From assembly GCA_031549605.1 (NCBI GenBank), contig JAVBPM010000027.1, forward strand, positions 1,338-65,337: a stretch of 64,000 bases of DNA, written 5' to 3'. The DNA comes from Oscillospiraceae bacterium. Lineage in GTDB: Bacteria > Bacillota > Clostridia > Oscillospirales > UBA929. This document shows, piece after piece, positions 36,565 through 57,267 of this stretch (its first letter is position 1; each line of letters begins with the position of its first letter). The notes under the pieces were generated by a model. It saw only the letters and a program-made list of their open reading frames with translations. It was not told where the DNA came from and did not search any database. The translations under genes were made by a program, and so were the position numbers.

Positions 36565-36573
36565 TGCAACCCT
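36555..36573. other. left attachment junction of the sigK intervening element (core TTT 36563-36565)
   Basis: SigK similarity ends at codon 36564-62. Aligning the two junctions gives G-N-AAA-N-G on the minus strand, with AAA shared. Confidence 0.6.
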
Positions 36574-38296: not shown

Positions 38297-38389
38297 TTCA
38301 TTCACCCTTGTCCAATGTGATGTATTAAGCTTAACACTATCGTTACGGCTTGACAAGGGTATTATATAGGAAAACAAGCGAATTCGCAA

Positions 38390-39947: not shown

Positions 39948-40113
39948 GTGTATCACCTCATAGGGTGATTATACAACATTTGAAATGAAAAGGAAATGTA
40001 ATGTCAATGGCAGGACGTGAGTACTATGCAAAGACTGGTAGTGTAAAACAAAGTGTGCTTTTGCCTTTTCTGAGGAAGTGGTATAAACTTAGAAACCCTT
40101 AAAAGCGAAAGTA

Positions 40114-40506
40114 TTAGCTGAATAATAAATCTATAAGACCTGAAAGCTTGTCACCAGTCATGGAAATACCATTTACGTTAGCACCGGCTACTGTAATGTG
40201 ATTGTCGTTATGCAATGTGAATACCATTGTAAATTCATAATCGTTTTTGCTTTTGACGCCGGTAAATGCCACTTCATATTTTACTTGTTTTCCGGCGCTA
40301 GTGCTTTCCCCAAGAGACCAACTCGGGCCGCGTGTTATTTCGTTGCCGGTCAGATAACTATGCAGTCCTTCTGCTATCGGCTTGTTAGGATAGCCAGCGA
40401 GACAACCATTTTTTACACTCCCCACTGGGTCTTTTGTGCCACTGGAACAGGCCGTTGTGGCGATTAGGAGGCAGAGGAAAATCGCTATAATTCGTGAGGT
40501 TTTCAT
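40114..40506 (-). CDS. hypothetical lipoprotein
   Basis: MKTSRIIAIFLCLLIATTACSSG: signal peptide plus lipobox. Confidence 0.55.
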   Translation of the reverse strand: MKTSRIIAIFLCLLIATTACSSGTKDPVGSVKNGCLAGYPNKPIAEGLHSYLTGNEITRGPSWSLGESTSAGKQVKYEVAFTGVKSKNDYEFTMVFTLHNDNHITVAGANVNGISMTGDKLSGLIDLLFS

Positions 40507-40568
40507 AAAATTATACTCCTTTTTACAAGTGCTTACAATACTTCCACATAGGATTTATCGAAGCGCAT

Positions 40569-40784
40569 TCATTTGCGATTGCCCTTTTTGACTTTTACGC
40601 CCATCATAACGAAATAAATGGTAACGAACAGCAGAATAACGCCAACAATGGGAACGACAATGGACAAGGTATCGAAAAGTGAAGCCCTAGCTTTTTCGTC
40701 AGCCATAAGTCCCGGCGAATATTGACTGGCACTTTCTATGACACCCCAGACTGCGCCTTTGCTGTATGAATTGTGCTCTGGCAA
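40569..40784 (-). CDS. small membrane protein (71 aa)
   Basis: C-terminal TM helix IVVPIVGVILLFVTIYFVMMGV followed by a basic tail. Confidence 0.4.
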   Translation of the reverse strand: MPEHNSYSKGAVWGVIESASQYSPGLMADEKARASLFDTLSIVVPIVGVILLFVTIYFVMMGVKVKKGNRK

Positions 40785-40889
40785 TATGTAAAAAAGTCAG
40801 GTCAGTAATGACGCCAGAGAAAATGTCCCTGACACAATGGAAAAACGAAGAAACTTGTTCATTCTTTTACACTCTTTTCTGTCATGTAA

Positions 40890-41195
40890 TTACGATCGGT
40901 TGCTTTTCAGACCCAAATAGGCTAGTACGCCTGCACCAAACAGACCCAGCGCACGAATGGTCATGGCGATGCCACCATAGATACCGCCCAGCTCGGTGTA
41001 GTATGCCTCCTCTAAGGTCTTGCCGCCGACTGATTCAATCAGAGAAATCTCTTCGCCGTGGCTGGCTATCTGCCCTGCTGCTACCATGCAGAGCACCAAA
41101 ACAATAACGGCTAGAACGCAAAATATGATGAGCTTAAGCGGATTGTTTTGTTTGGCCGGTGGGAATGGGGTGGGCGCAAATGTTGGTTGGTTCAT
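40890..41195 (-). CDS. small membrane protein (101 aa)
   Basis: Two predicted TM helices. AAAGGAG RBS. Confidence 0.45.
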   Translation of the reverse strand: MNQPTFAPTPFPPAKQNNPLKLIIFCVLAVIVLVLCMVAAGQIASHGEEISLIESVGGKTLEEAYYTELGGIYGGIAMTIRALGLFGAGVLAYLGLKSNRS

Positions 41196-41223
41196 AATGA
41201 TGACTCCTTTTCTGAAATGTGTT

Positions 41224-41283
41224 TAGTGTCGTAACGACGTTTTGTGCCATAATGGGCTGGTATTGAGGCGTGTATTGGGGTTG
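41224..41283. repeat. 60-bp direct repeat, copy 1 (intergenic)
   Basis: 58/60 identical to 42748-42807, compared base by base. Confidence 0.9.
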
Positions 41284-41285
41284 CT

Positions 41286-41843
41286 TCATTGTTTTATGTA
41301 CTTGCTTATGTACTCAACAATCTGATTACGGCTGTTTTTAGGTTTTGATGTAAATGGGTTTGGGCTGTTGCATGCAAATTTGTATCTTTCGCCGTATCGC
41401 GTAGCTATTTCGAGGCCCGCGGCGGCAAGTGCCTTTGAGAAAGTAACATACGTAATGTCTTGTAGTGGTATGGCTAAATCAGTATTATTGCTTGCCAAAG
41501 ATAATAGCCCTTTGCCGACTGCATTTATGGCGGTGCTTTTTTCCCAAAGTAGACGCATATTTGTCAGAATTATATACCCGCTGTCTCGAGTGCCCTTGTA
41601 AATCGTACACAGCTGCTTGATAATAACGGCTTCACCCTGATAGAGAGGCGTCTTAATATTGGGCGCAATATAGCTGGCAGGCTGCTGCTGTTGAGTCGTT
41701 GCGCTAGCTTGTTCTGTGCTGTTTGCTGGAGCAGCTTGTTGTTGAATCGCTGTAGTATTGGGTTGCCTAATCTTTGTTCCACATTCTATGCAAAAATTAG
41801 ATGTGTCATTTAGTTGTGTTCCACATTGTTGACAAAATGGCAT
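41286..41843 (-). CDS. zinc-ribbon protein with a PH/GRAM-like C-terminal region
   Basis: MPFCQQCGTQLNDTSNFCIECGTKI zinc ribbon, a Q/A/T-rich linker, then a ~110-aa soluble domain. Confidence 0.5.
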   Translation of the reverse strand: MPFCQQCGTQLNDTSNFCIECGTKIRQPNTTAIQQQAAPANSTEQASATTQQQQPASYIAPNIKTPLYQGEAVIIKQLCTIYKGTRDSGYIILTNMRLLWEKSTAINAVGKGLLSLASNNTDLAIPLQDITYVTFSKALAAAGLEIATRYGERYKFACNSPNPFTSKPKNSRNQIVEYISKYIKQ

Positions 41844-41916
41844 ACATAACTATCCTTTCGATATATTAATCGGGTTTAACAACTGTCTATGATATTATGA
41901 GATGAGAATTGCAGAG

Positions 41917-42327
41917 TTAGTTATAAAGGCTTGTGCCGCAGCTTTGGCAAAATAATGAGCCTTTGTCATTTCTGACGCCGCATTGTGTGCAGTAAACAAA
42001 TGGATTGGTATTATTGTTTAAGGGCAAAATCGTGGGGGCACTTGAGGCGAAGGTGTGGTTTTTTCTGCTTCGTCGGGAAAACGCCATAATCAAAAGTACA
42101 ATGCTTGAGATTACGAAGAAGATGCAGAGCACATAAAACGCATTATAAAGAAAAATAATAGTATCCTCTTTGGAGGTGTCACCGAAAGCCTCAGCCAATG
42201 CATAGGTAGATCCAGAGACACGTTGTGAATATGCGGCAGCATAGCCAAAGAAAGACCCAATTGCCAAAAGAAAGGATATGCCTGACCACATGAATAGATT
42301 CTTTGGTTTTCTTCTCATATATGACAC
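41917..42327 (-). CDS. membrane protein with a C-terminal zinc ribbon
   Basis: Two TM helices, then YCTQCGVRNDKGSLFCQSCGTSL. Confidence 0.45.
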   Translation of the reverse strand: MSYMRRKPKNLFMWSGISFLLAIGSFFGYAAAYSQRVSGSTYALAEAFGDTSKEDTIIFLYNAFYVLCIFFVISSIVLLIMAFSRRSRKNHTFASSAPTILPLNNNTNPFVYCTQCGVRNDKGSLFCQSCGTSLYN

Positions 42328-42369
42328 CTGCTTGTACAGTGGAAATTAAGTATATGTTGTAGTGCTGAG

Positions 42370-42939
42370 CTAACGCACAGCTTGCCGTGCAACAAACCCT
42401 TGCTCTATTTGCAGGAAAGTCGCTTGGTTGCTCATTGCATAGTTGCGGACGGTAAAATCATAAATGGAGCCGGCGACTGCGATGATGCCGCCAAAGATGA
42501 GGTTGTATAACAACGTGGCAACCAAAGGCCCGACCGGCGTGTATTTAGCGACAATGCCCACTGGTCGTTGTAGGATTTCCGCCGAATAGGCTCTGTCCTT
42601 GCCGGAAAGAACAATGTTGACCACGCCAATGGCAATGATAATGCCTCCGCTAATCTCGTCTACCGACATTAAGAGAATGCCGCCTATTGCCAACTGCAGG
42701 ATGCCAATAATGAGCCATATCGTAGCCGATGTTTGAAGTTTTCCCGATAGTGTCGTAACGACGTTTTGTGACATAACGGGCTGGTATTGAGGCGTGTATT
42801 GGGGTTGGTACGGCTGCTGATACGGCTGCTGATACAGGGGAACGGGGGGTGGAGCGGTGGCGCTTTGTGATGCAACGCATTGTTGGCAGAGCGTGCCGTT
42901 TGAATTGAGCGATGTACCGCAGCTTGTACAGAATGGCAT
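42370..42939 (-). CDS. zinc-ribbon membrane protein
   Basis: ATG 42939 (AAAGGA 8 nt upstream). MPFCTSCGTSLNSNGTLCQQC, a PQY-rich linker, and three or four TM helices. Confidence 0.5.
   Translation of the reverse strand: MPFCTSCGTSLNSNGTLCQQCVASQSATAPPPVPLYQQPYQQPYQPQYTPQYQPVMSQNVVTTLSGKLQTSATIWLIIGILQLAIGGILLMSVDEISGGIIIAIGVVNIVLSGKDRAYSAEILQRPVGIVAKYTPVGPLVATLLYNLIFGGIIAVAGSIYDFTVRNYAMSNQATFLQIEQGFVARQAVR
42748..42807. repeat. 60-bp direct repeat, copy 2 (inside the CDS)
   Basis: Pairs with 41224-41283. Here it encodes ...PQYTPQYQPVMSQNVVTTL. Confidence 0.9.
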
Positions 42940-43076
42940 GGTGTTCATCCTTTCTACATATAATCTATTTGTCAAACTGTATCATATATAATTCCTATAG
43001 TCAATATTTACTTCTTTTAATTCATTACTCGACATGACGAAATCCGATATAATCAAACCTCAAGGGGGTGCAGGTG

Positions 43077-43403
43077 ATGTTTGACTATATCGCGTTGGGT
43101 GCTCGTATACGGACAAGTCGGACCAAAGCCGGGATGACGCAAGAGCAGCTTGGCGAGGCGACCGGTTTGTCCACCGCATTTATTGGCCACATTGAGCGCG
43201 GCACACGCAAACTGTCGGTTGAGTCGCTGGTTCAAATTGCCTCCTGTCTATCCGTCAGCGTCGACTATCTGCTACTGGACATGGCGCAGCCGGACAATCT
43301 GTTCAGCACTATATCGGCCAAGCTTGCCGCCACCAGTGCTGAGAAGCAAAAAGCTTTTTTGACCATGGTCAAGGCGATGGCTGAAAAAATTGACGAAATA
43401 TAA
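43077..43403 (+). CDS. XRE-family HTH transcriptional regulator
   Basis: MTQEQLGEATGLSTAFIGHIERGTRKLSVESL, an HTH_3-type motif. Confidence 0.7.
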   Translation: MFDYIALGARIRTSRTKAGMTQEQLGEATGLSTAFIGHIERGTRKLSVESLVQIASCLSVSVDYLLLDMAQPDNLFSTISAKLAATSAEKQKAFLTMVKAMAEKIDEI

Positions 43404-43482
43404 ACCGCCCTTGATGACAATATCATCTTGGGCGGTCTTTGTTACTTAGCTGTCTGTTTAGTAAACAATGGGCACAGGTGAG

Positions 43483-44181
43483 CTATAATGCTCGACGGAG
43501 CGAGAGTGCGTCTGAGAAGCGTTCTTCGGGGCTGGGTTGTACGCAGCGACGGATAATTTTTCCCAGCCGTCCGCGCGCACGCTGCTTGCTGTAATGCTCA
43601 CCGGTTAACATGACATTCATCAGCATGCCCAGCGCATATATGTCCGTCCGCTCGTCGGACTCCTTAAAACCGTATTGTTCCGGCGCAGCATATCCGGCCG
43701 TGCCAAGTAGCTGTGTATCCTTGCTTTGCGCTGGCTTCACCAGTCGACAGGCGTTGAAGTCAATCAGCTTAGTCATGCCGTTACAATCAACCATTACGTT
43801 CTCAGGTTTAATGTCTCGGTGGACGATACCCAGCGAGTGCAGCGCGGACAATGCATCGCAAAGCTGCTTGGACACCTGTCGTGTGCCCCGCTCGGTGTAG
43901 TGGCCCGTCTCCAGCACTTGGGCAACGGTACAGCCGTCTATGTATTCCTCCAGCACGGTAACGATGTTTTCACGCTGCACAACTTCGTAGATGCGCGGCA
44001 GGTGCGGGTGTGTGACGTTCAGTAAATGCCGATAGACTTCAGCGCTGCCCGTGAAGGTGCGCTTGACGATTGGCCAATGCAGCGTCTTGTGGCGAAGTAG
44101 CAGCACTTGAGACGAAGGCGTCTGCTTCAATGCCGTCACAAGCGTATATTGTTTATCTAAGGCGTCATTTAGCCAGTCCAT
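43483..44181 (-). CDS. stand-alone Ser/Thr protein kinase domain protein
   Basis: Start ATG 44181. Hanks motifs HRDIKPENVMV, DFN (DFG-like) and GTAGYAAPE. No sensor or TM region. Confidence 0.8.
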   Translation of the reverse strand: MDWLNDALDKQYTLVTALKQTPSSQVLLLRHKTLHWPIVKRTFTGSAEVYRHLLNVTHPHLPRIYEVVQRENIVTVLEEYIDGCTVAQVLETGHYTERGTRQVSKQLCDALSALHSLGIVHRDIKPENVMVDCNGMTKLIDFNACRLVKPAQSKDTQLLGTAGYAAPEQYGFKESDERTDIYALGMLMNVMLTGEHYSKQRARGRLGKIIRRCVQPSPEERFSDALSLRRAL

Positions 44182-44236
44182 CTTTTCACCCACTGTCGAT
44201 TCATGGTATACTGACATCATACTAGGAGGCGATGTA

Positions 44237-44659
44237 ATGGTCAAGAAGTCAACCGACGATTTGCTGGCAGAGTTGCAGGGGCAAAAACCGCTGGAGGCGT
44301 ACATCGCCGACAACCAGGACGCTTTCTATTCGAAGCAGCTGGCGCAAGTGCTGTGTCAGTTGGTGGAGGAAAAGCAGACAACCAAATATGAGGTCATCAA
44401 ACGTGCTGAGCTGACCGAGGTGTATGGCTATCAAATCTTTGCCGGGAAGCGGCTACCCTCGCGGGATAAGTTGCTCTGTTTGTGCATAGGGCTGGGTCTG
44501 TCAGTCGACGAAACCCAGCAACTGCTGAAGCAGGTGGGCATGGCGCCGTTGTATGCAAAGCTGAAGCGGGATAGTATTATTCTGTATGAGGTTGGCCACG
44601 GGCAGAATGTGGTGGCGATTAATGAGCGGTTGTATCTTGAAAATGAATTAACGTTATAA
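44237..44659 (+). CDS. HTH-domain protein (XRE-like)
   Basis: 140 aa. The segment KRAELTEVYGYQIFAGKRLPSRDKLLCLCIGLGLSVDETQQLL matches a common clostridial HTH family. Divergent from the kinase gene. Confidence 0.55.
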   Translation: MVKKSTDDLLAELQGQKPLEAYIADNQDAFYSKQLAQVLCQLVEEKQTTKYEVIKRAELTEVYGYQIFAGKRLPSRDKLLCLCIGLGLSVDETQQLLKQVGMAPLYAKLKRDSIILYEVGHGQNVVAINERLYLENELTL

Positions 44660-47515: not shown

Positions 47516-47560
47516 AAGTGGGTGTAATACTAAGCTGACAGCTTAGTATTACACCCACTT
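47516..47560. repeat. perfect 22-bp-arm palindrome/hairpin
   Basis: aagtgggtgtaatactaagctg-a-cagcttagtattacacccactt. Sits at the left edge of the AT-rich island. Confidence 0.9.
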
Positions 47561-47618: not shown

Positions 47619-47647
47619 TTTTCATACCGAAATACATCGTATATAAT
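47619..47647 (+). promoter_or_regulatory. candidate outward promoter facing IR-L
   Basis: TTTTCA-17 nt-TATAAT, 76 nt upstream of IR-L. Confidence 0.35.
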
Positions 47648-47722
47648 AAATGGTAATTAGGTTACAGTTCTATGTGCAAAAGGGCTTGTAATTCTGGCAG
47701 TGCAAAATGAAGATTTAAAAGT

Positions 47723-47780
47723 CAATGCAGGATAATACCAGATTATCTATTGTTTACAGGTCAAATAATTTGTAATTATC
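47723..47780 (+). repeat. 58-bp inverted repeat, left copy (IR-L)
   Basis: caatgcaggataataccagattatctattgtttacaggtcaaataatttgtaattatc. Its reverse complement equals 52819-52876 exactly (58/58, checked base by base). Confidence 0.95.
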
Positions 47781-47795
47781 CTTATAAAAGAGAGG

Positions 47796-49475
47796 ATGTT
47801 AAGTTTGATATCACTTGGAATTAACATTGGACATGATCAGGGTGCCGCAGTTGTAAAAGACGGCATTTTGGTTGGGGCAATCGCTCAAGAAAGACTAAAT
47901 AGAGTAAAGCATTCTGCTTCAACAACATTGCCATTTATAGCTATAGATAATCTACTAGATTACTTGGAAATAGGTATTAACGAAGTAGATTGCATTGGGT
48001 TCTCTTCTACTGCTGTTAATATCAATGAATTAAATTCTTATGTTGCTGATAGTCTTACAAACTACTATGATATTAATGATCCACATATCATTCCTGTATC
48101 ACATCATCAAGCTCATGCAGAAAGTGCTTACTTTACTTCAAATTTTGATGAAGCAATAACGCTTATTGCTGATGGTGGCGGTGAAATGTTAGGCGTAAAG
48201 GAAGAAGCAGAAAGCATATTTTACTGCAGAAACGCAGAGGTTACATTAATGGAACAACGTTTGCAAAGTAATAATGTACATGCTTTTGCTCGTCCGCACA
48301 ATTATTTAATCCCGTTTATGAACAAAAAACAATTTAGTGAACAAATTAGCCTTGGTAAAAAATATGAACAGGTAACTAGTTTGCTATCTTTTGGCGCAAA
48401 TGGTGCTGGAAAGACGATGGGCCTTTCAGCCTATGGGAAAAGTTTAATTAGTACAAATGCAGTTCCTGTAACCGATCCATTGGCTTTCAATCTTGATTTT
48501 CAAGATATTTTGCAACCATATTATTCATTGTACGAGCATTCTGGGGAGAATTACTTTGATTTCATGAAAAAGCATCAAGCAGATATAGCGAGGACCTTAC
48601 AAGATTATACAGAAAATCAAGTATTAGAAATCATTGAATACATACTGTCAAAGTACAAAGTATCACAAATCTGTTTAGCCGGAGGGCTGTTTCTCAACTG
48701 TCCTATTAATCACAAAATTTTAGAAAAGTATCCACAAGTGTCATTGCATATCTGTCCTGCTGCAGGTGATGATGGACAGGCAATGGGAACTGCATTAGCA
48801 GCGTATAGAACAGTCTCTTCAGATCTATATCCGAATTCATCCTGCCTACCGTATCTTGGTATAAGTTATACAAATGCTCAAATAGAGCAAGCTATAAAAT
48901 CGCGAGGACTACATTATCACTATTATGATGATGTAAGTATTGCGAGTCTTGTAGCAGAAAAAATATATAATAACAAAATAATCGGATTTTTGCATGGGAG
49001 AAGTGAAATTGGACCAAGGTCATTGTGCCATAGGAGCATACTTGCTAATCCAACTGTACCAAATATGAAAGACTATATCAATGCAAAAGTAAAGCACAGA
49101 GAAAATTTTCGTCCATTTGCACCAGTGGTTGCTGCAGAAAAACAATTTGAATACTTTTCTTTATTACAAGAGTCGCCGTATATGCTCTTGGCAACTACTG
49201 TAAAAGATAAATTTGTAGAACAATTACCTGCAATAACCCACGTGGATGGAACTGCGAGAATTCAATCGGTTAAAGCCGAAGATGATCCATTTGTACACCG
49301 AATACTTATTGAATTTGAAAAACTCTCTGGATTTCCAGTATTACTAAATACTTCATTTAACGATTGTGGAGAGCCTATTGTAGAAACACCAAGTGATGCA
49401 ATAAAAACTTTTCTGACTACAGAAATAGATATTCTTGTTATGGAAAATTATATATTATTTAAAGATGAACAATAA
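47796..49475 (+). CDS. NodU/CmcH/TobZ-family carbamoyltransferase
   Basis: Motifs GINIGHDQGAA, HHQAHAESAYF, ICLAGGLFLNCPINHKI, FRPFAPVV, HVDGTARIQSV and LNTSFNDCGEPIV. The true start may be TTG 47805, because the SD AGAGAGGA abuts ATG 47796. Confidence 0.85.
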   Translation: MLSLISLGINIGHDQGAAVVKDGILVGAIAQERLNRVKHSASTTLPFIAIDNLLDYLEIGINEVDCIGFSSTAVNINELNSYVADSLTNYYDINDPHIIPVSHHQAHAESAYFTSNFDEAITLIADGGGEMLGVKEEAESIFYCRNAEVTLMEQRLQSNNVHAFARPHNYLIPFMNKKQFSEQISLGKKYEQVTSLLSFGANGAGKTMGLSAYGKSLISTNAVPVTDPLAFNLDFQDILQPYYSLYEHSGENYFDFMKKHQADIARTLQDYTENQVLEIIEYILSKYKVSQICLAGGLFLNCPINHKILEKYPQVSLHICPAAGDDGQAMGTALAAYRTVSSDLYPNSSCLPYLGISYTNAQIEQAIKSRGLHYHYYDDVSIASLVAEKIYNNKIIGFLHGRSEIGPRSLCHRSILANPTVPNMKDYINAKVKHRENFRPFAPVVAAEKQFEYFSLLQESPYMLLATTVKDKFVEQLPAITHVDGTARIQSVKAEDDPFVHRILIEFEKLSGFPVLLNTSFNDCGEPIVETPSDAIKTFLTTEIDILVMENYILFKDEQ

Positions 49476-49477
49476 AT

Positions 49478-52400
49478 TTACACACCAAAGGGTATATAAA
49501 AATCGGTAAAAGTATCGCGAACCGAGTATAGAATATCTTTACCTACAAATAACAATCTACCTTTTTTAACTGATTCATAGTTTTTCTTAAATACGTCTAT
49601 ATTTCGCTGGCAAGAGTAGAAGCAAGATTTGTTTTTATCACACTTGAAATCACAAGTCCCATTACTTCCGTAGTATTTAATTTCACTTAGGAACTGATAA
49701 ACTTCACTTTCCAATCCATATTCGCATAGAAAAATAGCATAATTTGTAAGCAAAATAATATTGTTATAAGTAAAATCAAGTGCTCCAAGAAAAAATTGAT
49801 CACACTGTCTCATATGATGAAGCATGGTCTGAAAGTATTTATAAATTGTTTCTGATGATGAACCGTCGCTGGCAGCGATTATTGCACGAAGGCAATATAA
49901 TGACGGCATCATTTTAGCTATCCCGTTTTGTATACTGTCGGATATTCCAGCGTCTATGTGCTTTTTTGCTTGTTCTCTTTCCTCAGTACTGTTTCCAATA
50001 TAATAAATCGCAGCTAAGAGGTAATGACTACGGATAATAGCTATCGGGTACTCTACTTCCATGGCTAATTCAAGAAGTCTTTGCCCTTCATTTTTAAAAT
50101 AATTTAGTTTATCAAATTTAGTAGAATCATTAACTATGTTTGCTGTTAAAATACCAAGATCATTGTGACAACTAATTCTTGGTGATACATCTGATGAAAG
50201 AAGCGCTTTTGCTTCATTCATCAAGGCAAGAGCCTCTTGAAAATCTCTATAAAATCTTATTTTAGCTGATAATATTTTACTTAATGTCAATAACTTTGCA
50301 TCTTGCAACCGTTCAGCAATCTTGTATGAAAGCTGATTATAAAGCATCGCTAATTCCTTATGGTTTTCTTGTATATACACGCTAGAGATCCGGTCAAAAA
50401 GATCAAAACGTGTTTCATCATTAAAAAGAGCTTCATCTTTACGCTCTTGTGCAAGAAGTTCCAACAATAGTTTTTTTGCTTGTGATATACGGTCTGATTG
50501 CATAAACAGATGTGCTTGCATTTGCATAGCTGTTAGATGTAATGGCATATCATTTGCATGATGTTCTTTTATTATTTCTAGTATCTTCTCTATGACAATA
50601 CCACCACGGGCAACAGATAAGCTGTGTAAAGCGATATACATACTAGCTAATAATGTGTTTCTTTGAAGATTCAAGTTATTATTTTTAGAAGCAATTTCAT
50701 AAATAGTCTCGTATGTTTCAAAATATTTAGGAGTTAAATTGCATGAAGAAATATTTTTTATGTTGCTAATTTCAGTAATGGCTATTTGTAATAAACTCTC
50801 GCTTCTGTGAAAGTCGCCAACATGAAAATAAATTACTGCTTTTTGTAAATCAGAATACTGCTCTAATAATTCATTGCAAGAAACAAGGAAATCAGCTACT
50901 TTCTCAATTGTATTTTTAGATTTAAGAATTTCTCTTATAAACAAGAAAATATTTTCATGATCAAAAGTGATGTTATCATTATGAGTTATCTTGAGAAAGT
51001 GCCTTTTGTATAAAATATTAATGGTTTCAAAATTCTCATCCCCAAAATACAAATTATAAATTCGTTTGGGAGCTTCAATTCCATATAAACCGAGTAAAAG
51101 CAAAAATAATTGCAAATCTGTTCCGTTTGTCAAATCTGCAATGTTATCAAATCTTGCTCTTATTAAGTCCTGAACAGAAGAAGGGATGTATAATTTCTTC
51201 GCAAAAGTTGTTACATTAGTTATTCCCACTGCATTTCTGTTCATCAAATACATTAATTTTGTCTCCAACATATATTCTATAAATTGGCACACATAAAATG
51301 GATTGTTTTCAGATGCTTTATGAATCTTATTTATTACATATTCAGGTGCTTCGATAATTATTGACCGAATCATATTTTTACACTCAACATCAGTTAACTT
51401 TTTAATTTTATAGTTATTAATATTTTCGTTTTTCTCGTTTTCTAGCCATGATAAATAAGTAAAATAACTCTGATTGTAAACGCTATAGTCGTCCCGACCT
51501 GCAGTAATAATAATAAAAGGAGTATAGAAATTACTTGTCGAGAATTTCTTCAACAATGAAAAAAGGCTTTTATCTGCATTATGTATATCCTCAATAACAA
51601 TAGCATATCGGTTAAAATGCATTGGAATATTCGTTAAATCTATTAGAGCTCTTAATTTGTATTGCGGGATGCTATCAGCAATATAAGAATTAAGCAGTTC
51701 TTCGGTAGATTTTGTCTCATGTTCCGTGCATATAAAGTGAAATATCTTAATTCCACTTTGAGAAATTTTTTTACTCGCTTCATCTAATATTCTTGTTTTT
51801 CCAATTCCGGCTTCTCCACGAAGGTTAATCATGTGGAAATTAGTATTATTTTGCCCCCTTGAAACAATACTACTTATTATTTCTTTGTGATAAGTGCCTA
51901 CAAGAGGTGTTTCAAAATCATAATCAACAAAACGACCATTGATTATAATTTTTTTTAAATTTTCATTCAGCATAACATCAACTAAAATATCATCAATACC
52001 ATCAAAATATTCTTTTGTTACTCCGATACATTTGCAAATGCTATTGCCAGCATCTAGAAAAACTTCAAACTGTGTTTCAGATAATAGCCAGTTTCGATCA
52101 GATTTAAGTTGGAATTTGCATATTTGGGGATTTTCCGAATAATTGCGAAAACGCAAATATAATTCTAAATATGGCAAACCATTTCTCTTGCCGTGATTAA
52201 GTTGATAATCAGCCGATAGTTCAAAATGTTCTAGAGGCAAAGCATAATTTCCGAAAAGGGCATTATGAAAATCTAAAAACTTTGCTAAAATAAATTGGTC
52301 TACTAGAAAAAATTCATATCCATTTTCTATTGCATTATGGTTGGCTTCGTAATGCGAAAATGGAACGATGGTTTGATTGGTAATTAAAATGAAATAATCA

Positions 52401-52744
52401 ATTCCGCTATGATTTGCAAGAAGTATATTCTTTGAAAACTTGTCAAGACCAATTTTATTATTATTTGAGCTTTTAAATTCTATGTAAATGCAAATACTGC
52501 TTTTACCCTTTAAATCAAACTTTTTGCCAAAAAGAGAAAAAGGTACTATTGATCTAATAATTAAATCCTTACCACTATCCCTTGTGCGAGGGGTTCGTTC
52601 AATTTTTAATTCTTTTTCATAATATTCAGCTAACGAATACTCAATCACTGATGACACATGCTCTTCAAATTCAAAGCCAGACATATTTAGGTCCCACTTT
52701 TGACTATTAATATTCGGCGTAATATAATTAACGCTACCTAGCAT
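49478..52744 (-). CDS. Mrr-like nuclease / STAND P-loop NTPase / TPR-like repeat protein (Avs-like architecture)
   Basis: GAGGGAG RBS. Residues ~20-160 carry a PD-(D/E)xK pattern (GFEFEEHV, DSGKDLII, IYIEFKS, GIDYFILITN). Walker A GEAGIGKT (residues 310-317) and Walker B AIVIEDIH. About 650 aa of helical repeats, then a C-terminal Cys cluster. Confidence 0.8.
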   Translation of the reverse strand: MLGSVNYITPNINSQKWDLNMSGFEFEEHVSSVIEYSLAEYYEKELKIERTPRTRDSGKDLIIRSIVPFSLFGKKFDLKGKSSICIYIEFKSSNNNKIGLDKFSKNILLANHSGIDYFILITNQTIVPFSHYEANHNAIENGYEFFLVDQFILAKFLDFHNALFGNYALPLEHFELSADYQLNHGKRNGLPYLELYLRFRNYSENPQICKFQLKSDRNWLLSETQFEVFLDAGNSICKCIGVTKEYFDGIDDILVDVMLNENLKKIIINGRFVDYDFETPLVGTYHKEIISSIVSRGQNNTNFHMINLRGEAGIGKTRILDEASKKISQSGIKIFHFICTEHETKSTEELLNSYIADSIPQYKLRALIDLTNIPMHFNRYAIVIEDIHNADKSLFSLLKKFSTSNFYTPFIIITAGRDDYSVYNQSYFTYLSWLENEKNENINNYKIKKLTDVECKNMIRSIIIEAPEYVINKIHKASENNPFYVCQFIEYMLETKLMYLMNRNAVGITNVTTFAKKLYIPSSVQDLIRARFDNIADLTNGTDLQLFLLLLGLYGIEAPKRIYNLYFGDENFETINILYKRHFLKITHNDNITFDHENIFLFIREILKSKNTIEKVADFLVSCNELLEQYSDLQKAVIYFHVGDFHRSESLLQIAITEISNIKNISSCNLTPKYFETYETIYEIASKNNNLNLQRNTLLASMYIALHSLSVARGGIVIEKILEIIKEHHANDMPLHLTAMQMQAHLFMQSDRISQAKKLLLELLAQERKDEALFNDETRFDLFDRISSVYIQENHKELAMLYNQLSYKIAERLQDAKLLTLSKILSAKIRFYRDFQEALALMNEAKALLSSDVSPRISCHNDLGILTANIVNDSTKFDKLNYFKNEGQRLLELAMEVEYPIAIIRSHYLLAAIYYIGNSTEEREQAKKHIDAGISDSIQNGIAKMMPSLYCLRAIIAASDGSSSETIYKYFQTMLHHMRQCDQFFLGALDFTYNNIILLTNYAIFLCEYGLESEVYQFLSEIKYYGSNGTCDFKCDKNKSCFYSCQRNIDVFKKNYESVKKGRLLFVGKDILYSVRDTFTDFYIPFGV

Positions 52745-52818: not shown

Positions 52819-52876
52819 GATAATTACAAATTATTTGACCTGTAAACAATAGATAATCTGGTATTATCCTGCATTG
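52819..52876 (-). repeat. 58-bp inverted repeat, right copy (IR-R)
   Basis: Exact reverse complement of 47723-47780. Lies 75 bp upstream of the 1088-aa gene start and 44 bp from the recombinase stop. Confidence 0.95.
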
Positions 52877-52920
52877 GCTTAAACGTGAATAGTGACCCCA
52901 TGAATGAGGCCACTACTATT

Positions 52921-53841
52921 TTAAATAACTATTCGATTTCTAGGATGCTTTGTGTCTAATATCTCTTTTTGCTTTTTTAAACTCACATGTGTATATATCT
53001 GTGTCGTGGTAATCGAGCTATGTCCCAGAATTTGTTGTATATACCTGATATCAACACCTTCATCCAGTAATAGAGTTGCAAAAGAATGTCTAAACATATG
53101 TGGGGTTATATTAAGTGCAATTCCAGCTTGATTCGCATACTTTCGTATCATAAACCGTACAGATTGCTCAGATAGCCTGTTATTACAGCGGTTTAAATAA
53201 AATTGCTTTGCATTATTAACGTCTTTTTCTTCTCGAACTATACCATAATTATCTAACGCAGATAAAACCTCATCATTGCCAATTCTGATAATTCTCTCTT
53301 TCGCACCCTTTCCATAGATACAGGCGGTTTTTTCGTGGAAATTAATATCGCAACAATTTAATGAGCACAGCTCGGAAACACGCATGCCCGTTGCAAAGAG
53401 CAGTTCAAGAACGGCAATGTTACGAATTGTCATTCTCTTTTTATAATCTGTAGAACTGATTGACAATTCTGTATATGCGCATCTAAGGATGGCCTCAACA
53501 TCGGTCAATGATATAGTTCGTGGTAAAATCTTAGGCTCCTGAAACTTAGTTCTAACTTTAGCAAAATGGTCTTCATCAATTATATTTTCAAACTGTAAAT
53601 AATTAAAAAAAGCCTTTAGCGAAGCAATTTTGCGTTTAGCGCTTTTAGGCTTGTATTTTGTATGTAATGTAACAATATATGCATTAAGCACTTCTTTCAT
53701 TGAGCTGCTTTCGGACAGTTTTGCGTGCTGCCTAAATTGTTCAAGATCAATTCGGTATGCTTTAATTGTGGGCGCACTCAACTTCTTTTGATTTGCGCAA
53801 AAAGAAAGATAAGGACGGATTAACGATTCAGTAATTATCAC
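52921..53841 (-). CDS. tyrosine site-specific recombinase (XerC/XerD-like)
   Basis: GTG start after GGGGG. Core-binding N-terminal domain (APTIKAYRIDLEQF). Catalytic ATGMRVSEL, HMFRHSFAT and LGHSSITTTQIYTHV (R..HxxR..Y). Confidence 0.85.
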   Translation of the reverse strand: MIITESLIRPYLSFCANQKKLSAPTIKAYRIDLEQFRQHAKLSESSSMKEVLNAYIVTLHTKYKPKSAKRKIASLKAFFNYLQFENIIDEDHFAKVRTKFQEPKILPRTISLTDVEAILRCAYTELSISSTDYKKRMTIRNIAVLELLFATGMRVSELCSLNCCDINFHEKTACIYGKGAKERIIRIGNDEVLSALDNYGIVREEKDVNNAKQFYLNRCNNRLSEQSVRFMIRKYANQAGIALNITPHMFRHSFATLLLDEGVDIRYIQQILGHSSITTTQIYTHVSLKKQKEILDTKHPRNRIVI

Positions 53842-54004: not shown

Positions 54005-54072
54005 AGACATGTTAAATATAAAAAATGCAGAAATTATTACGTTATCTTCTACGTAAAAACGGGAGGTGTCAC

Positions 54073-55374
54073 TTGAAACGCATATTAAGCGACCAGCTAT
54101 TGTCTTGGAAAACGCAGAGCGACCGAAAACCGCTTATTCTAAAAGGCGTACGTCAGTGCGGTAAAACGTATTTGCTCAAGGAGTTTGGTGAGGCGCACTA
54201 CGACGACGTTGCCTACTTTAATTTTGAGGGCAACGACGCCTTGCAAGCGCGGTTTGATGTTGATTTGGATGTTGACCGAATCATTGCTGAACTGGGTATC
54301 CTGCGACGCAAAGCCATCGAGCCGGATAAAACGCTGATTATCTTTGATGAGATTCAGTTTTGTAACCGTGCTTTGACGGCGTTGAAATACTTCTGCGAGA
54401 ACGCGCCACAGTTTCATATTGTCTGTGCCGGGTCTCTTTTGGGCGTGGCGCTTAGTAAGCCGTTGTCATTTCCCGTGGGTAAGGTTGATTTTCTCACATT
54501 GCGGCCGATGAACTTCTATGAGTTTTTGCTGGCAAACGGCGAAGATTTACTGTGTGATTATTTGAACAAGCTAACCACCGGCGAAAAGGTGTCGGCATTG
54601 TTTGCCGAAAAGCTGGAGCAGTTGCTTCGGACGTATTATATCACTGGCGGTATGCCGGAGGCCGTGGATATATGGCTAAAGACGCGTGACATCGGCAAGC
54701 TGGAGGAGGTGCAGCAACGCATCCTTGACAGTTATGAGTTGGACTTTGCTAAGCACGCACCGAGTAAAGACTTCCCGAAACTGTCGGCGATTTGGCGGTC
54801 AATTCCTGAACAATTGGCCAAAGAGAACAGCAAGTTTATTTTCAGTCAGGTCAAGAAAGGCCTCCGCGCCAAAGACTTAGAGGATGCCTTGGAGTGGCTT
54901 CTGAGTGCCGGACTGGCCTTTAAGGTTATGAAAATTGAAAAGCCATTTTTGCCGCTGTCTGCCTATGCTGACGCGACGTTCTTTAAGCTCTACATGTCTG
55001 ACGTGGGCTTGCTTCGAAAGATGTCAAAGCTACCTGCAGAGGCGTTACTGGCGAAGAGTGAGCTATACACTGAGTTCAAGGGCGCATTGGCTGAGAATTA
55101 TGTGCTGACTGAGTTGGTCAACTTGCAGGGCGACACGCCGTATTACTGGAAATCGGGAAATATAGCCGAGGTCGATTTTGTCGTTCAGCAGGACATGGAC
55201 ATCATTCCTATTGAGGTCAAATCCGAGCGGAACGAACGCGCGCGGTCGCTGTCGGAGTATCGGAAAAAGTATAACCCACGTGTGGCGGTGATTACGTCGA
55301 TGAGTAATGTGTCTGGCGGCGAGGTTAGGAATGTGCCGTTGTATATGTTGTGGAGGTTGGTGGCGTATGTATAG
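54073..55374 (+). CDS. AAA-family ATPase with DUF4143-type C-terminal domain
   Basis: TTG 54073, 6 nt after GGGAGG, gives the family-typical N-terminus (L)KRILSDQLLSWKTQSDRKPLILKGVRQCGKTY (Walker A). Walker B LIIFDEIQ. Confidence 0.7.
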   Translation: MKRILSDQLLSWKTQSDRKPLILKGVRQCGKTYLLKEFGEAHYDDVAYFNFEGNDALQARFDVDLDVDRIIAELGILRRKAIEPDKTLIIFDEIQFCNRALTALKYFCENAPQFHIVCAGSLLGVALSKPLSFPVGKVDFLTLRPMNFYEFLLANGEDLLCDYLNKLTTGEKVSALFAEKLEQLLRTYYITGGMPEAVDIWLKTRDIGKLEEVQQRILDSYELDFAKHAPSKDFPKLSAIWRSIPEQLAKENSKFIFSQVKKGLRAKDLEDALEWLLSAGLAFKVMKIEKPFLPLSAYADATFFKLYMSDVGLLRKMSKLPAEALLAKSELYTEFKGALAENYVLTELVNLQGDTPYYWKSGNIAEVDFVVQQDMDIIPIEVKSERNERARSLSEYRKKYNPRVAVITSMSNVSGGEVRNVPLYMLWRLVAYV

Positions 55375-56818: not shown

Positions 56819-56917
56819 ATAAATAGCGAGCGTATTGCTCACCGCCCACGCCAACCGCCACGGCGATAAATGGGGTGCGTGGTGCGCTGTGTCGCGTTCC
56901 AAAGTTCCCATTTTGAT

Positions 56918-56938
56918 AGTATTGCTTTTTCAATACAT
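56918..56938. other. right attachment junction of the sigK intervening element (core TTT 56927-56929)
   Basis: SigK similarity ends after codon GAA (56931-56929). The local dyad gtattg-cttttt-caatac spans the junction. Confidence 0.6.
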
Positions 56939-57267
56939 CGGCAGGCGTAGGTGGCGAAGCGGGCTCCTTTTTCGGGGTCAAAGGTGAGCACTGCCTTGAT
57001 GAGGCCAATGTTGCCGCTGGACAGCAGGTCCTCGTAGTCGCTTTCGCTGGCGTAGAATTTGCGTGCAATGTGCGTGACCAGCCGCATGTTGTGTTCGATA
57101 AGCGCGTCCTGCGCGCGTTTGTCGCCCTGCTTATAGCGCAGCCACAGCGCCGACTCCTCCTCGCCGGTCAATCGTCGCGGGAAAGAGCCACCACGGCTGC
57201 TCAGTCGCAGGCTGAGGTACAAACTGTGCACCATGAGGGCCAAAGTAATGGAAATTATAGGAAACAC
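56929..57267 (-). CDS. sigK: sigma-K gene, 5' segment (spoIVCB-like; pro-sequence + regions 1.2-2.4)
   Basis: Hydrophobic pro-sequence (M)FPIISITLALMVHSLYLSL, then GDKRAQDALIEHNMRLVTHIARKF and SGNIGLIKAVLTFDPEKGARFATYACRCIE. Similarity stops at E113. The start codon (GTG 57267) is uncertain. Confidence 0.85.

What the first reader, a model, noticed from the sequence alone, without database searches (positions are those of the whole stretch)
47796..49475. A carbamoyltransferase in a defence-island context
**Seen.** This is a full-length two-domain NodU/CmcH-type enzyme: a Kae1/ASKHA-like N-terminal part with HHQAHAES, and a YrdC-like C-terminal part with HVDGTARIQSV and NTSFN. No antibiotic, Nod-factor or polysaccharide biosynthesis genes lie around it. 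Its only tight partner is the STAND nuclease.

**Established.** Family members (TobZ, NodU, CmcH) carbamoylate hydroxyl groups via carbamoyl-AMP.

**Inference.** Possible roles are:
- self-protective modification;
- production of a signalling or toxic nucleotide;
- modification of phage nucleic acid or glycan.

None of these is supported yet.
Basis: inference. Interest (0 to 1): 0.65.

Follow-up and report, generated by a model that had tools for sequence, protein, structure and literature searches.

The report
Invertible carbamoyltransferase / STAND-nuclease gene switch
The carbamoyltransferase is real, and it sits tail-to-tail with an immune-type STAND nuclease on a 5-kb DNA segment that a neighbouring recombinase flips, so the cell probably alternates which gene faces the outside promoter; I found no paper describing this kind of defence-island switch.

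Summary
The ORF at 47796-49475 is a genuine, apparently active CmcH/NodU-type carbamoyltransferase (CT).

- CT and the 1088-aa Mrr-STAND-TPR gene (49478-52744) are convergent, not an operon.
- The pair is bracketed by 62-nt inverted repeats (47719-47780 and 52819-52880). These contain a dif-like core, GGATAA-N7-TTATC.
- A Xer-like tyrosine recombinase (52921-53841) lies just outside the repeats.

Every CT at 40% identity or more with enough flanking sequence has the same STAND partner. All with complete ends except L025 show the exact core at both ends, with reverse-complementary spacers. A related recombinase was found in most. These loci span several phyla. None of 73 CTs at 36% or less has a partner.

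In two lineages, loci with near-identical flanks carry the segment in both orientations, with the breakpoint at the core.

Start codons lie too close to the core for an internal promoter, and usually only one flank has a good inward promoter. I therefore infer a gene-swap switch. In this window CT is on the promoter side.

Sister cassettes pair a second Mrr-STAND family with GT4 glycosyltransferases, and a putative TIR-like/HEAT protein with a GT2 glycosyltransferase. CT therefore fills a "modifier" slot. Its substrate is unknown.

The parts
47516..47560 (-). Perfect 21-22 bp hairpin outside the left repeat. It looks like a terminator on the - strand (followed by UUUAUUGUGCU) and may insulate the cassette from the primase region.
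   Evidence: (I2), 22 and 80: -38.6 kcal/mol, z -7.95.
47619..47647 (+). Best inward-facing sigma-70-like promoter candidate, TTTTCA-17-TATAAT. It lies 82 nt outside the left core and points at CT.
   Evidence: This is a consensus match only, not shown to be functional.
47719..47780 (.). Left inverted repeat (IR-L), 62 nt. It ends 15 nt before the CT start codon.
   Evidence: I1: 98% complementary to 52819-52880, with 5038 nt between the arms.
47730..47748 (.). Left core recombination site, GGATAA-TACCAGA-TTATCT. A second, weaker site lies at 47764-47781 inside the same repeat.
   Evidence: 7 matches against 0.51 expected, and 0 of 100 shuffles reached 7; same core at both ends of every related cassette with complete ends except L025.
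47796..49475 (+). CmcH/NodU-family carbamoyltransferase, 559 aa: Kae1-like N domain plus YrdC-like C domain.
49478..52744 (-). Avs-like STAND NTPase, 1088 aa. N-terminal Mrr-type PD-(D/E)xK nuclease, beta-sandwich, P-loop NTPase, TPR-like helical repeats, C-terminal CX3CX5CX3C.
   Evidence: invariant D60, E89, K91, G310-K316, D386; pLDDT 85; Foldseek: STAND-TPR 6mfv, Avs3, Avs4, NLRs.
52819..52880 (.). Right inverted repeat (IR-R), 62 nt. The core site is at 52851-52869 with spacer TCTGGTA, the reverse complement of the left spacer.
52881..52920 (-). Hairpin between the recombinase stop codon and IR-R. It is stable only on the - strand. It is a candidate attenuator of read-through from the recombinase gene into the cassette, but its U-tract is weak.
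   Evidence: -18.1 kcal/mol, z -5.6; + strand -8.3, not significant.
52921..53841 (-). Xer-like tyrosine recombinase, 306 aa. It lies outside the repeats and is the presumed invertase.
   Evidence: Phage_integrase 4.3e-41 plus Phage_int_SAM_1. XerD model 251 bits, below the 329.6 cut-off. Related recombinases at 44-58% identity sit near related cassettes.

Best explanation
**What it is.** CT is one arm of a two-gene invertible cassette.
- A Xer-like tyrosine recombinase (52921-53841) recombines two inverted dif-like cores, GGATAA-N7-TTATC. The cores lie inside the 62-nt repeats at 47719-47780 and 52819-52880.
- This flips the 5.1-kb segment that carries CT and the Mrr-STAND-TPR nuclease, which are arranged tail to tail.

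**How it probably works.**
- Both genes start within a few tens of nucleotides of a core and have no room for their own promoter, so each is transcribed only by what enters across the core from outside.
- One flank carries the main inward promoter. The other is the recombinase side, which often carries a terminator-like hairpin.
- Inversion therefore decides which gene is strongly expressed. With no terminator between the two stop codons in this window, read-through would be antisense to the other gene.
- In the window's orientation CT is in the promoter-side slot, and the STAND nuclease lies behind the recombinase.

**Role of CT.** CT is predicted to be an active carbamoyl-AMP-dependent O-carbamoyltransferase. 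It fills the 'modifier' slot that GT4 and GT2 glycosyltransferases fill in sister cassettes. A clonal population would then alternate between a 'modifier' state and a 'sensor-nuclease' state.

**Status of each step.**
- Shown: the repeats, the cores, the conserved association, and inversion in relatives.
- Inferred: which flank drives expression, mutual exclusivity, and any anti-phage role.
- Unknown: the acceptor that CT carbamoylates.
For: **Repeats and site**
- 62-nt, 98% inverted repeats bracket exactly the two genes.
- The core pattern occurs 7 times against 0.51 expected.
- The core GATAA-N7-TTATC resembles the inner part of Xer/dif sites (my own knowledge). The recombinase scores best on the XerD and XerC models.

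**Conservation**
- Every locus whose CT is at least 40% identical and has enough flank has the convergent STAND gene. A related recombinase was found in most. The taxa include Lachnospiraceae, Bacteroidaceae, Maridesulfovibrio, a partial Rubrobacter locus and one IMG/VR contig.
- All 73 CTs at 36% or less have neither.
- In every locus with both ends except L025, the two cores have reverse-complementary spacers. Spacers differ between lineages (nine or more variants) and always match within a locus.

**Inversion seen directly**
- L013 and L015 against L014 and L016-L018: 6.6-kb flanks at 99.7-99.9% identity, with the central 5157 bp inverted.
- L179 against L180 and L183: central 5002 bp inverted.
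- The outer half-sites swap partners exactly at the core.
- Contigs L187 and L188 are exactly the 5002-bp segment. L185 and L186 (5097 and 5025 bp) also begin 3 nt before the left core.
- 38 of 120 CT clusters have a longest contig of 4997-5352 bp.
- Relative to the recombinase, the window, L001 and L010 have STAND proximal. L007, L021 and L025 have CT proximal.

**Promoter must be outside**
- The core-to-ATG distance is 22 nt in L010, where the repeat includes the Shine-Dalgarno sequence. In L025 the core overlaps the ATG. It is about 45-48 nt in the window and L179.
- One flank has a good inward promoter and the other does not in the window, L007, L013 and L179/L180. L021 has only a marginal edge of 10 against 9.5.
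- Hairpins follow the recombinase gene in the window, L010 and L021.

**Same design with other enzymes**
- Mrr-STAND2 with GT4, with or without a zeta-like kinase, and a TIR-like/HEAT protein with GT2. These have the same cores, a recombinase 55% identical to the window's, and are also seen in both orientations.
Against: - Only one orientation of the window's own locus is available, so switching in this genome is extrapolated from relatives.
- Promoter calls are consensus matches in AT-rich DNA. Region-wide there are fewer than in shuffles (24 against 33.6).
- In L001 the best promoter is on the recombinase side, not the far side.
- In L007 and L025 the recombinase stop codon is less than 30 nt from the core, so the proximal gene is probably co-transcribed with the recombinase while the other flank also has a promoter. 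Both genes may then be made, at different levels.
- In L012 both flanks score alike.
- The window's hairpin after the recombinase has a weak U-tract.
- A strictly conserved, co-diverging pair (CT 77 to 40% identity, STAND 69 to 27%) would also be expected if the two proteins work together.
- No PADLOC model hits either protein, and no experiment links them to phage defence.
Confidence: 0.6

Rival explanations
1. CT and STAND form a co-expressed two-component defence system. CT would supply something the nuclease needs: a self-protective mark, or a carbamoylated nucleotide ligand or antidote. Both flanks would provide transcription, and inversion would only tune the ratio or be incidental.
For: - Strict co-occurrence and co-divergence across phyla.
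- In L007 and L025 the recombinase-proximal gene is probably co-transcribed with the recombinase while the far flank also has a promoter.
- L012 has similar promoter scores on both flanks.
- Accessory genes in the CT operon point to nucleotide or RNA chemistry: a zeta-like kinase in L012 and a 2H phosphoesterase in L025.
Against: - Convergent genes have overlapping or abutting 3' ends (2-nt gap here, 22-68 nt overlap in L007, L010 and L179), so they interfere rather than co-express.
- One flank is usually promoter-poor or carries a terminator-like hairpin.
- The STAND protein has the full self-contained Avs-like layout of nuclease, NTPase and TPR sensor, which needs no partner in characterised Avs proteins.
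- CT persists without STAND where an IS has destroyed it.
Confidence: 0.2
2. The inverted cores are primarily the ends of a mobile, exchangeable cassette, moved by recombinase-mediated cassette exchange or insertion. Inversion would be a side reaction without regulatory meaning.
For: - The same conjugative-element backbone (83% nt identity up to the core) carries CT+STAND in L013 but STAND2+GT4+zeta in L198.
- The module sits in many unrelated contexts and has much lower GC (0.30-0.35) than its surroundings here.
- Extra cores with other spacers exist in L001, L010 and L198.
Against: - The recombinase lies outside the repeats.
- Cassettes at the same site have different spacers, so they cannot simply exchange.
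- Gene starts are placed right at the cores, with shared leaders and Shine-Dalgarno sequences inside the repeats. That is design for expression from outside.
- Both orientations are common among near-identical loci and probably within samples.
Confidence: 0.12
3. CT is an ordinary biosynthetic or cell-envelope enzyme that lies next to a defence gene by chance on a mobile element.
For: The family is best known for small-molecule O-carbamoylation. The PDB relatives are antibiotic-tailoring enzymes.
Against: - Every CT at 40% identity or more with enough flank has the same partner, and the exact core at both ends is missing only in L025. None of 73 more distant CTs has either.
- The NodU equivalog score is far below its cut-off (155 against 1000).
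Confidence: 0.02

Closest known systems
Phage Mu G segment / Gin (and P1 C segment / Cin)
   Same: An invertible segment of a few kb is bounded by short inverted repeats. Alternative genes face inward from each end. The promoter lies outside the segment and the invertase gene sits next to, but outside, the segment. Inversion chooses which gene set is expressed.
   Different: - Mu uses a small serine invertase; here it is a Xer-like tyrosine recombinase with a dif-like core.
- Mu swaps homologous tail-fibre variants fused to a constant 5' part. Here two complete, unrelated genes (a transferase and a STAND nuclease) are swapped.
- This comparison rests on my own knowledge of Mu.
Expression-site switching by tyrosine recombinases (Mycoplasma pulmonis vsa/hsd with HvsR; Streptococcus pneumoniae ivr type I R-M with CreX; other hsdS invertons, PMC7672463, PMC9881135)
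   Same: A tyrosine recombinase sits beside the locus. Inverted sites lie at gene 5' ends. The result is phase-variable population heterogeneity in phage-related functions.
   Different: Those systems shuffle homologous gene segments or alleles. Milman et al. (PMC9881135) searched for gene-altering inversions, and their text does not mention carbamoyltransferases or NTPases. Here whole, non-homologous genes trade places.
Avs (antiviral STAND) proteins such as Avs3 and Avs4
   Same: N-terminal nuclease effector, STAND NTPase and C-terminal TPR-like sensor in one polypeptide of about 1000 aa or more. Foldseek hits Avs3 (8dgc) and Avs4 (8dgf) at E 1e-9 to 6e-8.
   Different: There is no PADLOC hit and only 10-13% identity to solved Avs structures. 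The protein has an extra beta-sandwich domain and a C-terminal four-Cys motif. It is always paired convergently with a transferase inside an invertible cassette. Its ligand and anti-phage activity are untested.
TobZ / NodU / CmcH / GdmN O-carbamoyltransferases
   Same: Same two-domain architecture, and the conserved family motifs are invariant. The inferred chemistry is therefore carbamoyl phosphate + ATP to carbamoyl-AMP, then transfer to a hydroxyl.
   Different: Identity to characterised members is low: CTs outside the clade are 29-37% identical. There is no biosynthetic cluster. This is a separate clade dedicated to the STAND cassette, and its acceptor is unknown.
GT4 glycosyltransferases as predicted effectors in STAND-linked conflict systems (Kaur, Iyer, Burroughs, Aravind 2021, PMC8195603; Pfam PF20706)
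   Same: A group-transfer enzyme is associated with STAND NTPases in mobile conflict loci and is proposed to modify invader molecules. The sister cassettes found here carry such a GT4, with a weak PF20706 match.
   Different: That paper describes fusions and operons. It does not mention carbamoyltransferases, inversion or recombinases.

Membership tests
CmcH/NodU-type carbamoyltransferase | Both family domains (Kae1-like N, YrdC-like C) above Pfam gathering scores | tested here: met
   101.6 bits against a cut-off of 24, and 221.6 bits against 27.
CmcH/NodU-type carbamoyltransferase | Conserved catalytic motifs: the His-His...Asp metal site in the N domain, and the K-x-R...R-P-F, H-V-D-G-T-A-R and N-T-S-F-N motifs in the C domain | tested here: met
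   all are present and invariant in 30 clade members. Assigning them to catalysis rests on my recollection of the TobZ structure paper.
CmcH/NodU-type carbamoyltransferase | Equivalence to a characterised member (NodU) | tested here: not met
   NodU equivalog 155.5 bits against a cut-off of 1000. It is a family member but not an orthologue of any characterised enzyme.
CmcH/NodU-type carbamoyltransferase | Carbamoyl transfer to a defined acceptor | not testable with these tools
   Needs enzymology.
Programmed DNA inversion system (inverton/shufflon type) | Inverted repeats bounding the segment, beyond chance | tested here: met
   62 nt, 98%; 0 of 100 shuffles reach the count; cores at both ends in all complete relatives except L025.
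Programmed DNA inversion system (inverton/shufflon type) | Site-specific recombinase encoded next to the segment | tested here: met
   A related recombinase was found in most related loci.
Programmed DNA inversion system (inverton/shufflon type) | Both orientations observed between otherwise identical flanks, with the breakpoint in the repeats | tested here: met
   Met in relatives: (L013/L014, L179/L180/L183, L198/L199, L202/L203/L204). Not testable for the window's own genome, where only one orientation is seen.
Programmed DNA inversion system (inverton/shufflon type) | Matching crossover spacers in the two sites | tested here: met
   spacers are reverse-complementary within every locus with both cores and differ between lineages.
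Programmed DNA inversion system (inverton/shufflon type) | Inversion changes gene expression | tested here: inconclusive
   Geometry forces transcription to come from outside, and promoter scores are asymmetric in several lineages. Exceptions exist (L001, L007, L012, L025) and there are no expression data.
Avs / antiviral STAND | STAND NTPase core with intact Walker A and B | tested here: met
Avs / antiviral STAND | N-terminal nuclease effector and C-terminal TPR-like sensor in one protein | tested here: met
   Mrr_cat 21.3 bits against a cut-off of 21. Invariant D60, E89 and K91. Helical repeats at residues 610-1020 in the model.
Avs / antiviral STAND | Recognised by existing Avs profile models | tested here: not met
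   no PADLOC family at E 0.01 or better.
Avs / antiviral STAND | Senses a phage protein and protects against phage | not testable with these tools
   Needs phage challenge.
XerC/XerD chromosome-dimer resolvase | Score above the equivalog cut-off | tested here: not met
   XerD 251.1 against 329.6, and XerC 242.6 against 335.2. It is Xer-like but not the housekeeping Xer.
Restriction-modification-like pair (modifier protects self from the nuclease) | Modifier and nuclease expressed together | tested here: inconclusive
   The genes are convergent, with abutting stop codons and one dominant outside promoter. This argues against co-expression but does not exclude it.

The most novel reading that the evidence does not exclude
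Xer-like invertases drive a widespread, undescribed class of 'either/or' immune toggles in gut Firmicutes, Bacteroidota and other phyla. Each cassette would pit an intracellular sensor-effector (Mrr-STAND, or TIR-like/HEAT) against a hydroxyl-modifying transferase (carbamoyltransferase, GT4 or GT2, with or without a zeta-like kinase or a 2H phosphoesterase). The two would be kept mutually exclusive because they are incompatible. For example, the transferase might mark nucleic acid, nucleotides or the phage receptor in one subpopulation, while the Mrr-type nuclease in sibling cells attacks what carries that mark. Carbamoylation would then be a new kind of immune mark.
Probability: 0.15. Interest if true: 0.92.

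Novelty: new variant of a known kind. Interest (0 to 1): 0.78.

Why it matters
Recombinase genes in defence islands are usually written off as remnants of mobile elements. Phase variation of defence is known mainly for type I R-M specificity genes and for short invertible promoters.

Here a whole immune receptor-nuclease and a whole modifying enzyme trade places in front of an outside promoter.
- The design recurs in Lachnospiraceae, Bacteroidaceae and Maridesulfovibrio, with a partial Rubrobacter locus and one IMG/VR contig.
- The modifier differs between cassettes: CT, GT4 or GT2.
- Cassettes sit next to Kiwa, a PARIS AriA-like ATPase, SIR2 and R-M genes.

If the switch is confirmed, three things follow:
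- It adds a regulatory layer, bet-hedging between immune states, to STAND/Avs-type immunity.
- It gives carbamoyltransferases their first role in a conflict system.
- It explains why this locus fragments into contigs of about 5 kb in metagenome assemblies, and so is easily missed by neighbourhood-based discovery pipelines.

The system is small (three genes and two sites), so it should be easy to test in locked-orientation strains.

Tried and rejected
- **PADLOC** scan of CT, STAND and recombinase: no hits.
- **Plasmid collection**, tblastn with STAND: no match.
- **Viral contigs**: only one related locus, L197, which has the same cassette with its cores.
- **Metagenome-contig scan** with the CT alignment: swamped by distant CTs because of the 600-stretch limit. 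Only L099 belonged to the clade.
- **Genome contigs**: only about 7 clade members among 80 loci, but these served well as a positive/negative contrast.
- **Cluster look-up to name the host**: no names. The host is unidentified. It has high GC and a split sigK, so it is probably a spore-forming Firmicute.
- **Region-wide promoter scan**: not enriched over shuffles, so promoter arguments rest on position and on cross-locus comparison only.
- **Core in L025**: no GATAA-N7-TTATC core at first. By eye it has GATAACTAGAAATTATG overlapping both start codons.
- **Recombinase side always silent, far side always ON**: considered and dropped. L001 has its best promoter on the recombinase side, and L007 and L025 lack room for a terminator.
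- **Contig breaks in Logan assemblies as proof of heterogeneity**: considered and dropped, because short-k unitigs break at any inverted repeat. I kept the argument only for the SPAdes, MEGAHIT and MAG contigs, where I assume k exceeds the 32-nt repeat. It is still an inference.
- **Literature**: six full-text searches and four papers checked. None describes CT-STAND pairing or inversion of whole defence genes by a tyrosine recombinase. A 2026 paper only speculates that inversion may regulate defence genes (PMC13552941).
Full report
**1. The observation.**

The ORF 47796-49475 (+, 559 aa) is present as described.
- It carries both domains of the CmcH/NodU family: Carbam_trans_N at 7.8e-29 and Carbam_trans_C at 6e-66.
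- Its best solved relatives are GdmN, TobZ and a novobiocin carbamoyltransferase, at E 1e-64 to 2e-59.
- It scores far below the NodU equivalog cut-off, 155 against 1000 bits.
- It has no membrane segments and a pI of 5.2.

The module lies in DNA of 30-35% GC inside a genome of about 60% GC.

**2.

- CT and the 1088-aa gene (49478-52744, - strand) are convergent, with stop codons 2 nt apart and no terminator between them.
- The longest inverted repeat in the region is a 62-nt, 98% pair at 47719-47780 and 52819-52880. It brackets exactly these two genes. IR-L ends 15 nt before the CT start codon, and IR-R begins 74 nt upstream of the STAND start codon.
- Each arm holds a palindromic core, GGATAA-N7-TTATC. 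The pattern gives 7 matches in the window against 0.51 expected, and 0 of 100 shuffles reach 7.
- Forty nucleotides outside IR-R lies a 306-aa tyrosine recombinase (52921-53841). It has Phage_int_SAM_1 and Phage_integrase domains, and its best NCBIfam models are XerD and XerC, both below their cut-offs.
- The core resembles the inner CATAA-N6-TTATG of Xer dif sites. This comparison rests on my own knowledge.

**3. The association is specific and old.**

I collected loci through exact-protein look-ups and one scan of species-representative genomes. I then ran tblastn with the window's three proteins against them.
- Every CT at 40% identity or more with enough flank has the STAND homologue convergent downstream, at 27-62% identity. 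A related recombinase (44-58% identity) was found in most.
- This holds in Lachnospiraceae, a Bacteroidaceae MAG (L022), Maridesulfovibrio (L025), a partial Rubrobacter locus (L023) and one IMG/VR contig (L197).
- All 73 CTs at 36% or less (L024, L026-L098) have neither.
- CT and STAND identities fall together (74/62, 70/59, 67/56, 58/43, 52/38, 46/31, 40/27), so they are inherited as a unit.
- The STAND family itself is compact. It has 73 clear members (plus one marginal hit at E 9e-4), nearly all about 1070-1114 aa, and then a sharp drop in score.

**4. The segment inverts.**

- Four CT lineages examined besides the window show long flanking repeats: L007/L008, L010/L011, the L013/L020 lineage and L021. 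L012 and L022 have 24-nt repeats.
- Every locus with both ends, except L025, has a GATAA-N7-TTATC core at each end with reverse-complementary spacers (in L022 the left core ends TTATG, read by eye).
- Spacers differ between lineages (TACCAGA, TACCAAA, CTATAAA, CTACTAA, TATGTAG, TTGAATA, TAAAAAG, TTCTTAG, TCCGGTA and others) but always match within a locus. This is what a tyrosine-recombinase crossover region requires.
- Two lineages give direct proof. The CT protein is identical within each lineage.
  - L013 and L015 against L014 and L016-L018: 6.6 kb of flank on each side at 99.7-99.9% identity, with the central 5157 bp in opposite orientation.
  - L179 against L180 and L183: the same for a 5002-bp segment.
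  - In the first lineage the outer half-site flanks (TAGTATGAACAGA and TACTATAAACGAA) swap partners exactly at the core.
- Contigs from a SPAdes assembly and a MAG (L187, L188) are exactly the 5002-bp segment. A MEGAHIT k127 contig and one further ENA contig (L185, L186; 5097 and 5025 bp) also begin 3 nt before the left core.
- 38 of the 120 best CT clusters have a longest contig of 4997-5352 bp. Because I assume these assemblers' final k exceeds the 32-nt repeat, I infer that both orientations coexist within samples.
- Relative to the recombinase, STAND is proximal in the window, L001 and L010. CT is proximal in L007, L021 and L025.

**5. How expression is probably controlled.**

There is no room for a promoter between core and gene in several lineages.
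- L010: 22 nt, and the repeat includes the Shine-Dalgarno sequence GAGGGAGGG for both genes.
- L025: the core GATAACTAGAAATTATG overlaps both ATGs.
- The window and L179: 45-48 nt.

Transcripts must therefore cross the core from outside. I scored inward sigma-70-like promoters in the 200 nt outside each core.

| Locus | Best inward promoter | Distance to core | Other flank |
|---|---|---|---|
| Window (left) | TTTTCA-17-TATAAT | 82 nt | poor |
| L007 | TTGATG-17-TATAAT | 32 nt | none found |
| L013 | TTGCCA-17-TATGAT | 32 nt | poor |
| L021 | TTGAAA-18-TATGAT | 17 nt | almost as good (10 against 9.5) |
| L179/L180 | TTGAAT-17-TATAAT, preceded by a terminator | 13 nt | poor |

In L010 a strong promoter and a PIN_12-SIR2 operon read into the cassette.

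Hairpins follow the recombinase gene before the repeat:
- window: -18.1 kcal/mol, z -5.6, stable on the - strand only;
- L010: -47 kcal/mol;
- L021: -32 kcal/mol, with a U-run.

My inference is that one flank is the expression slot and that inversion chooses CT or STAND. Where there is no terminator between the genes, as in this window, read-through would be antisense to the other gene.

By this reading the window is in the CT-ON state. The gene on the better-promoter flank is CT in the window, L010, L013, L015 and L180-L183. It is STAND in L001, L007, L014, L016-L018, L021 and L179.

Caveats:
- These are consensus matches in AT-rich DNA, and the region holds fewer than shuffles do.
- L001 has its best promoter on the recombinase side.
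- L007 and L025 leave no room for a terminator after the recombinase gene.
- L012 is ambiguous.

A shift in ratio rather than strict ON/OFF remains possible.

**6. The partner protein.**

- The alignment shows an invariant PD-(D/E)xK set (D60, E89, K91), Walker A (G310-K316), Walker B (D386) and four near-invariant C-terminal cysteines.
- The AlphaFold model has mean pLDDT 85. It gives a nuclease domain (1-160), a beta-sandwich (176-269), a P-loop NTPase with winged helix (284 to about 600) and helical repeats (610-1020).
- Foldseek's best hits are a STAND-TPR protein (6mfv), Avs3, SAMD9, Avs4, plant NLRs and CED-4.

It works like an Avs-type sensor-nuclease. It is not recognised by PADLOC models, and its ligand is unknown.

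**7. The design is broader than CT.**

A third core in L001 precedes a second Mrr-STAND gene. Its family (about 1015 aa) is convergently paired with a GT4 glycosyltransferase of about 790 aa, which gives a weak match to Pfam 'GT4-conflict'.
- Some of these cassettes also carry a zeta-toxin-like kinase.
- They are flanked by the same kind of cores.
- They lie next to a recombinase 55% identical to the window's.
- They are seen in both orientations: L198 against L199, and L202 against L204.

L202 and L203 also carry a second, independently inverted cassette with its own spacer. It pairs a 446-aa protein (weak CAP12-TIR and HEAT matches) with a GT2 glycosyltransferase.

L198 carries the GT4 cassette at the same site of the same conjugative backbone (83% nt identity up to the core) where L013 carries CT+STAND.

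CT therefore occupies a 'modifier' slot that glycosyltransferases fill elsewhere.

Extra genes in the CT operon hint at nucleotide, sugar-nucleotide or RNA-end chemistry, but they do not identify the acceptor:
- a zeta-like P-loop kinase in L012 (Zeta_toxin, 3.2e-14);
- a 2H phosphoesterase in L025, with two HxT motifs.

All the modifier-arm proteins checked lack predicted membrane segments.

**8. Context.**

Neighbours of the cassettes include:
- Kiwa (L179);
- a PARIS AriA-like ATPase and an Eco57I-type methylase (L012);
- a ThsA-like SIR2 (L010);
- an OLD-family ATPase and an FRG protein (L202);
- T4SS or relaxase genes (L013, L025);
- in the window, a PDC-S01 ATPase and a P4-type primase.

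The defence-island and mobile-element setting is therefore real.

**9. Comparison with the known, and novelty.**

- The closest mechanistic analogue is the Mu G segment with Gin: inward-facing alternative genes, an outside promoter and an adjacent invertase. Here, however, a Xer-like tyrosine recombinase swaps unrelated whole genes.
- Type I R-M invertons and the Mycoplasma vsa/hsd loci are the closest tyrosine-recombinase examples.
- GT4 domains linked to STAND proteins have been predicted as effectors (PMC8195603). That paper mentions neither carbamoyltransferases nor inversion.
- The systematic inversion survey (PMC9881135), the 2026 STAND survey (PMC13581612) and a 2026 recombinase-bait study (PMC13552941) do not describe this either.

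Within the held library I found no description of it. I rate it a new variant of known kinds (programmed inversion plus Avs-like STAND immunity) rather than something categorically new.

**10. Verdict.**

| Claim | Probability or status |
|---|---|
| Observation | confirmed |
| The segment is an invertible cassette | about 0.95 |
| Inversion toggles which gene is mainly expressed | about 0.55-0.6 |
| CT's substrate | unknown |
| The modifier and nuclease states are functionally incompatible | about 0.15 (attractive but untested) |

Noticed in passing
window 36193-57267: The sporulation sigma factor gene sigK is split. The N-terminal half at 56839-57267 (-) matches SigK model positions 5-116 of 227. 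The C-terminal half at 36193-36741 (-) matches 109-224. A low-GC element of about 20 kb lies between them, with a large serine recombinase at one end (36560-38389). This is a skin-like intervening element, and the CT/STAND/recombinase module is cargo inside it.
   Followed up: partly
window 54025-55374 (+): An AAA_14/DUF4143 ATPase matches the PADLOC candidate defence family PDC-S01 at E 1e-173. It lies just beyond the recombinase. The same gene type lies beyond the recombinase in L010 and L011.
   Followed up: no
L202 / L203 2567-4932: A second, independently inverted cassette has its own core spacer (CTTACAA/TTGTAAG). It pairs a 446-aa protein (weak CAP12/Pycsar-TIR and HEAT matches) with a GT2 glycosyltransferase, in tandem with the STAND2/GT4 cassette.
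   Followed up: partly
L198 9948-16480 against L013 9908-15048: The same conjugative-element backbone (83% nt identity up to the core, LytTR side) carries STAND2+GT4+zeta-like kinase in one genome and CT+STAND in another. The cassette has been replaced at a fixed site.
   Followed up: partly
L010 831-897 and L001 11032-11050: Extra cores with non-matching spacers. In L010 a strong promoter (TTGAAA-17-TGgTATACT) and a core precede a PIN_12-SIR2 operon that reads into CT. In L001 a third core precedes a second Mrr-STAND gene. These may be multi-segment shufflons.
   Followed up: partly
L020 9888-9996: The CT leader has been replaced by the STAND leader, including the first 9 nt of the STAND ORF. 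This lengthens the inverted repeat to 109 nt and suggests that sequence is copied between the two arms.
   Followed up: no
L025 9970-9988, 11650-12231 and 15586-15604: In Maridesulfovibrio the core GATAACTAGAAATTATG overlaps the ATG of both genes. A 193-aa 2H phosphoesterase with two HxT motifs follows CT in the same operon.
   Followed up: partly
L012 9165-9980; L198 15485-16366: Zeta-toxin-like P-loop kinases sit at the head of the modifier arm, before CT in L012 and before GT4 in L198, inside the invertible segment.
   Followed up: no
L183 2082-5291; L189 8671-10743; L021 11910-12515: Decay and IS activity in cassettes. STAND is frameshifted in L183. STAND is replaced or disrupted by Transposase_mut (IS256-type) genes in the P0051 lineage, while CT stays intact. 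An IS200-type transposase is inserted between the genes in L021.
   Followed up: no
table (P0001-P0120): 38 of 120 CT protein clusters have a longest contig of 4997-5352 bp, the size of the invertible segment. This locus is systematically fragmented in metagenome assemblies.
   Followed up: partly
window 38721-44313: A run of small zinc-ribbon membrane proteins, a Ser/Thr protein kinase (43483-44313, -) and HTH regulators lies in the same intervening element. Their function is unknown.
   Followed up: no
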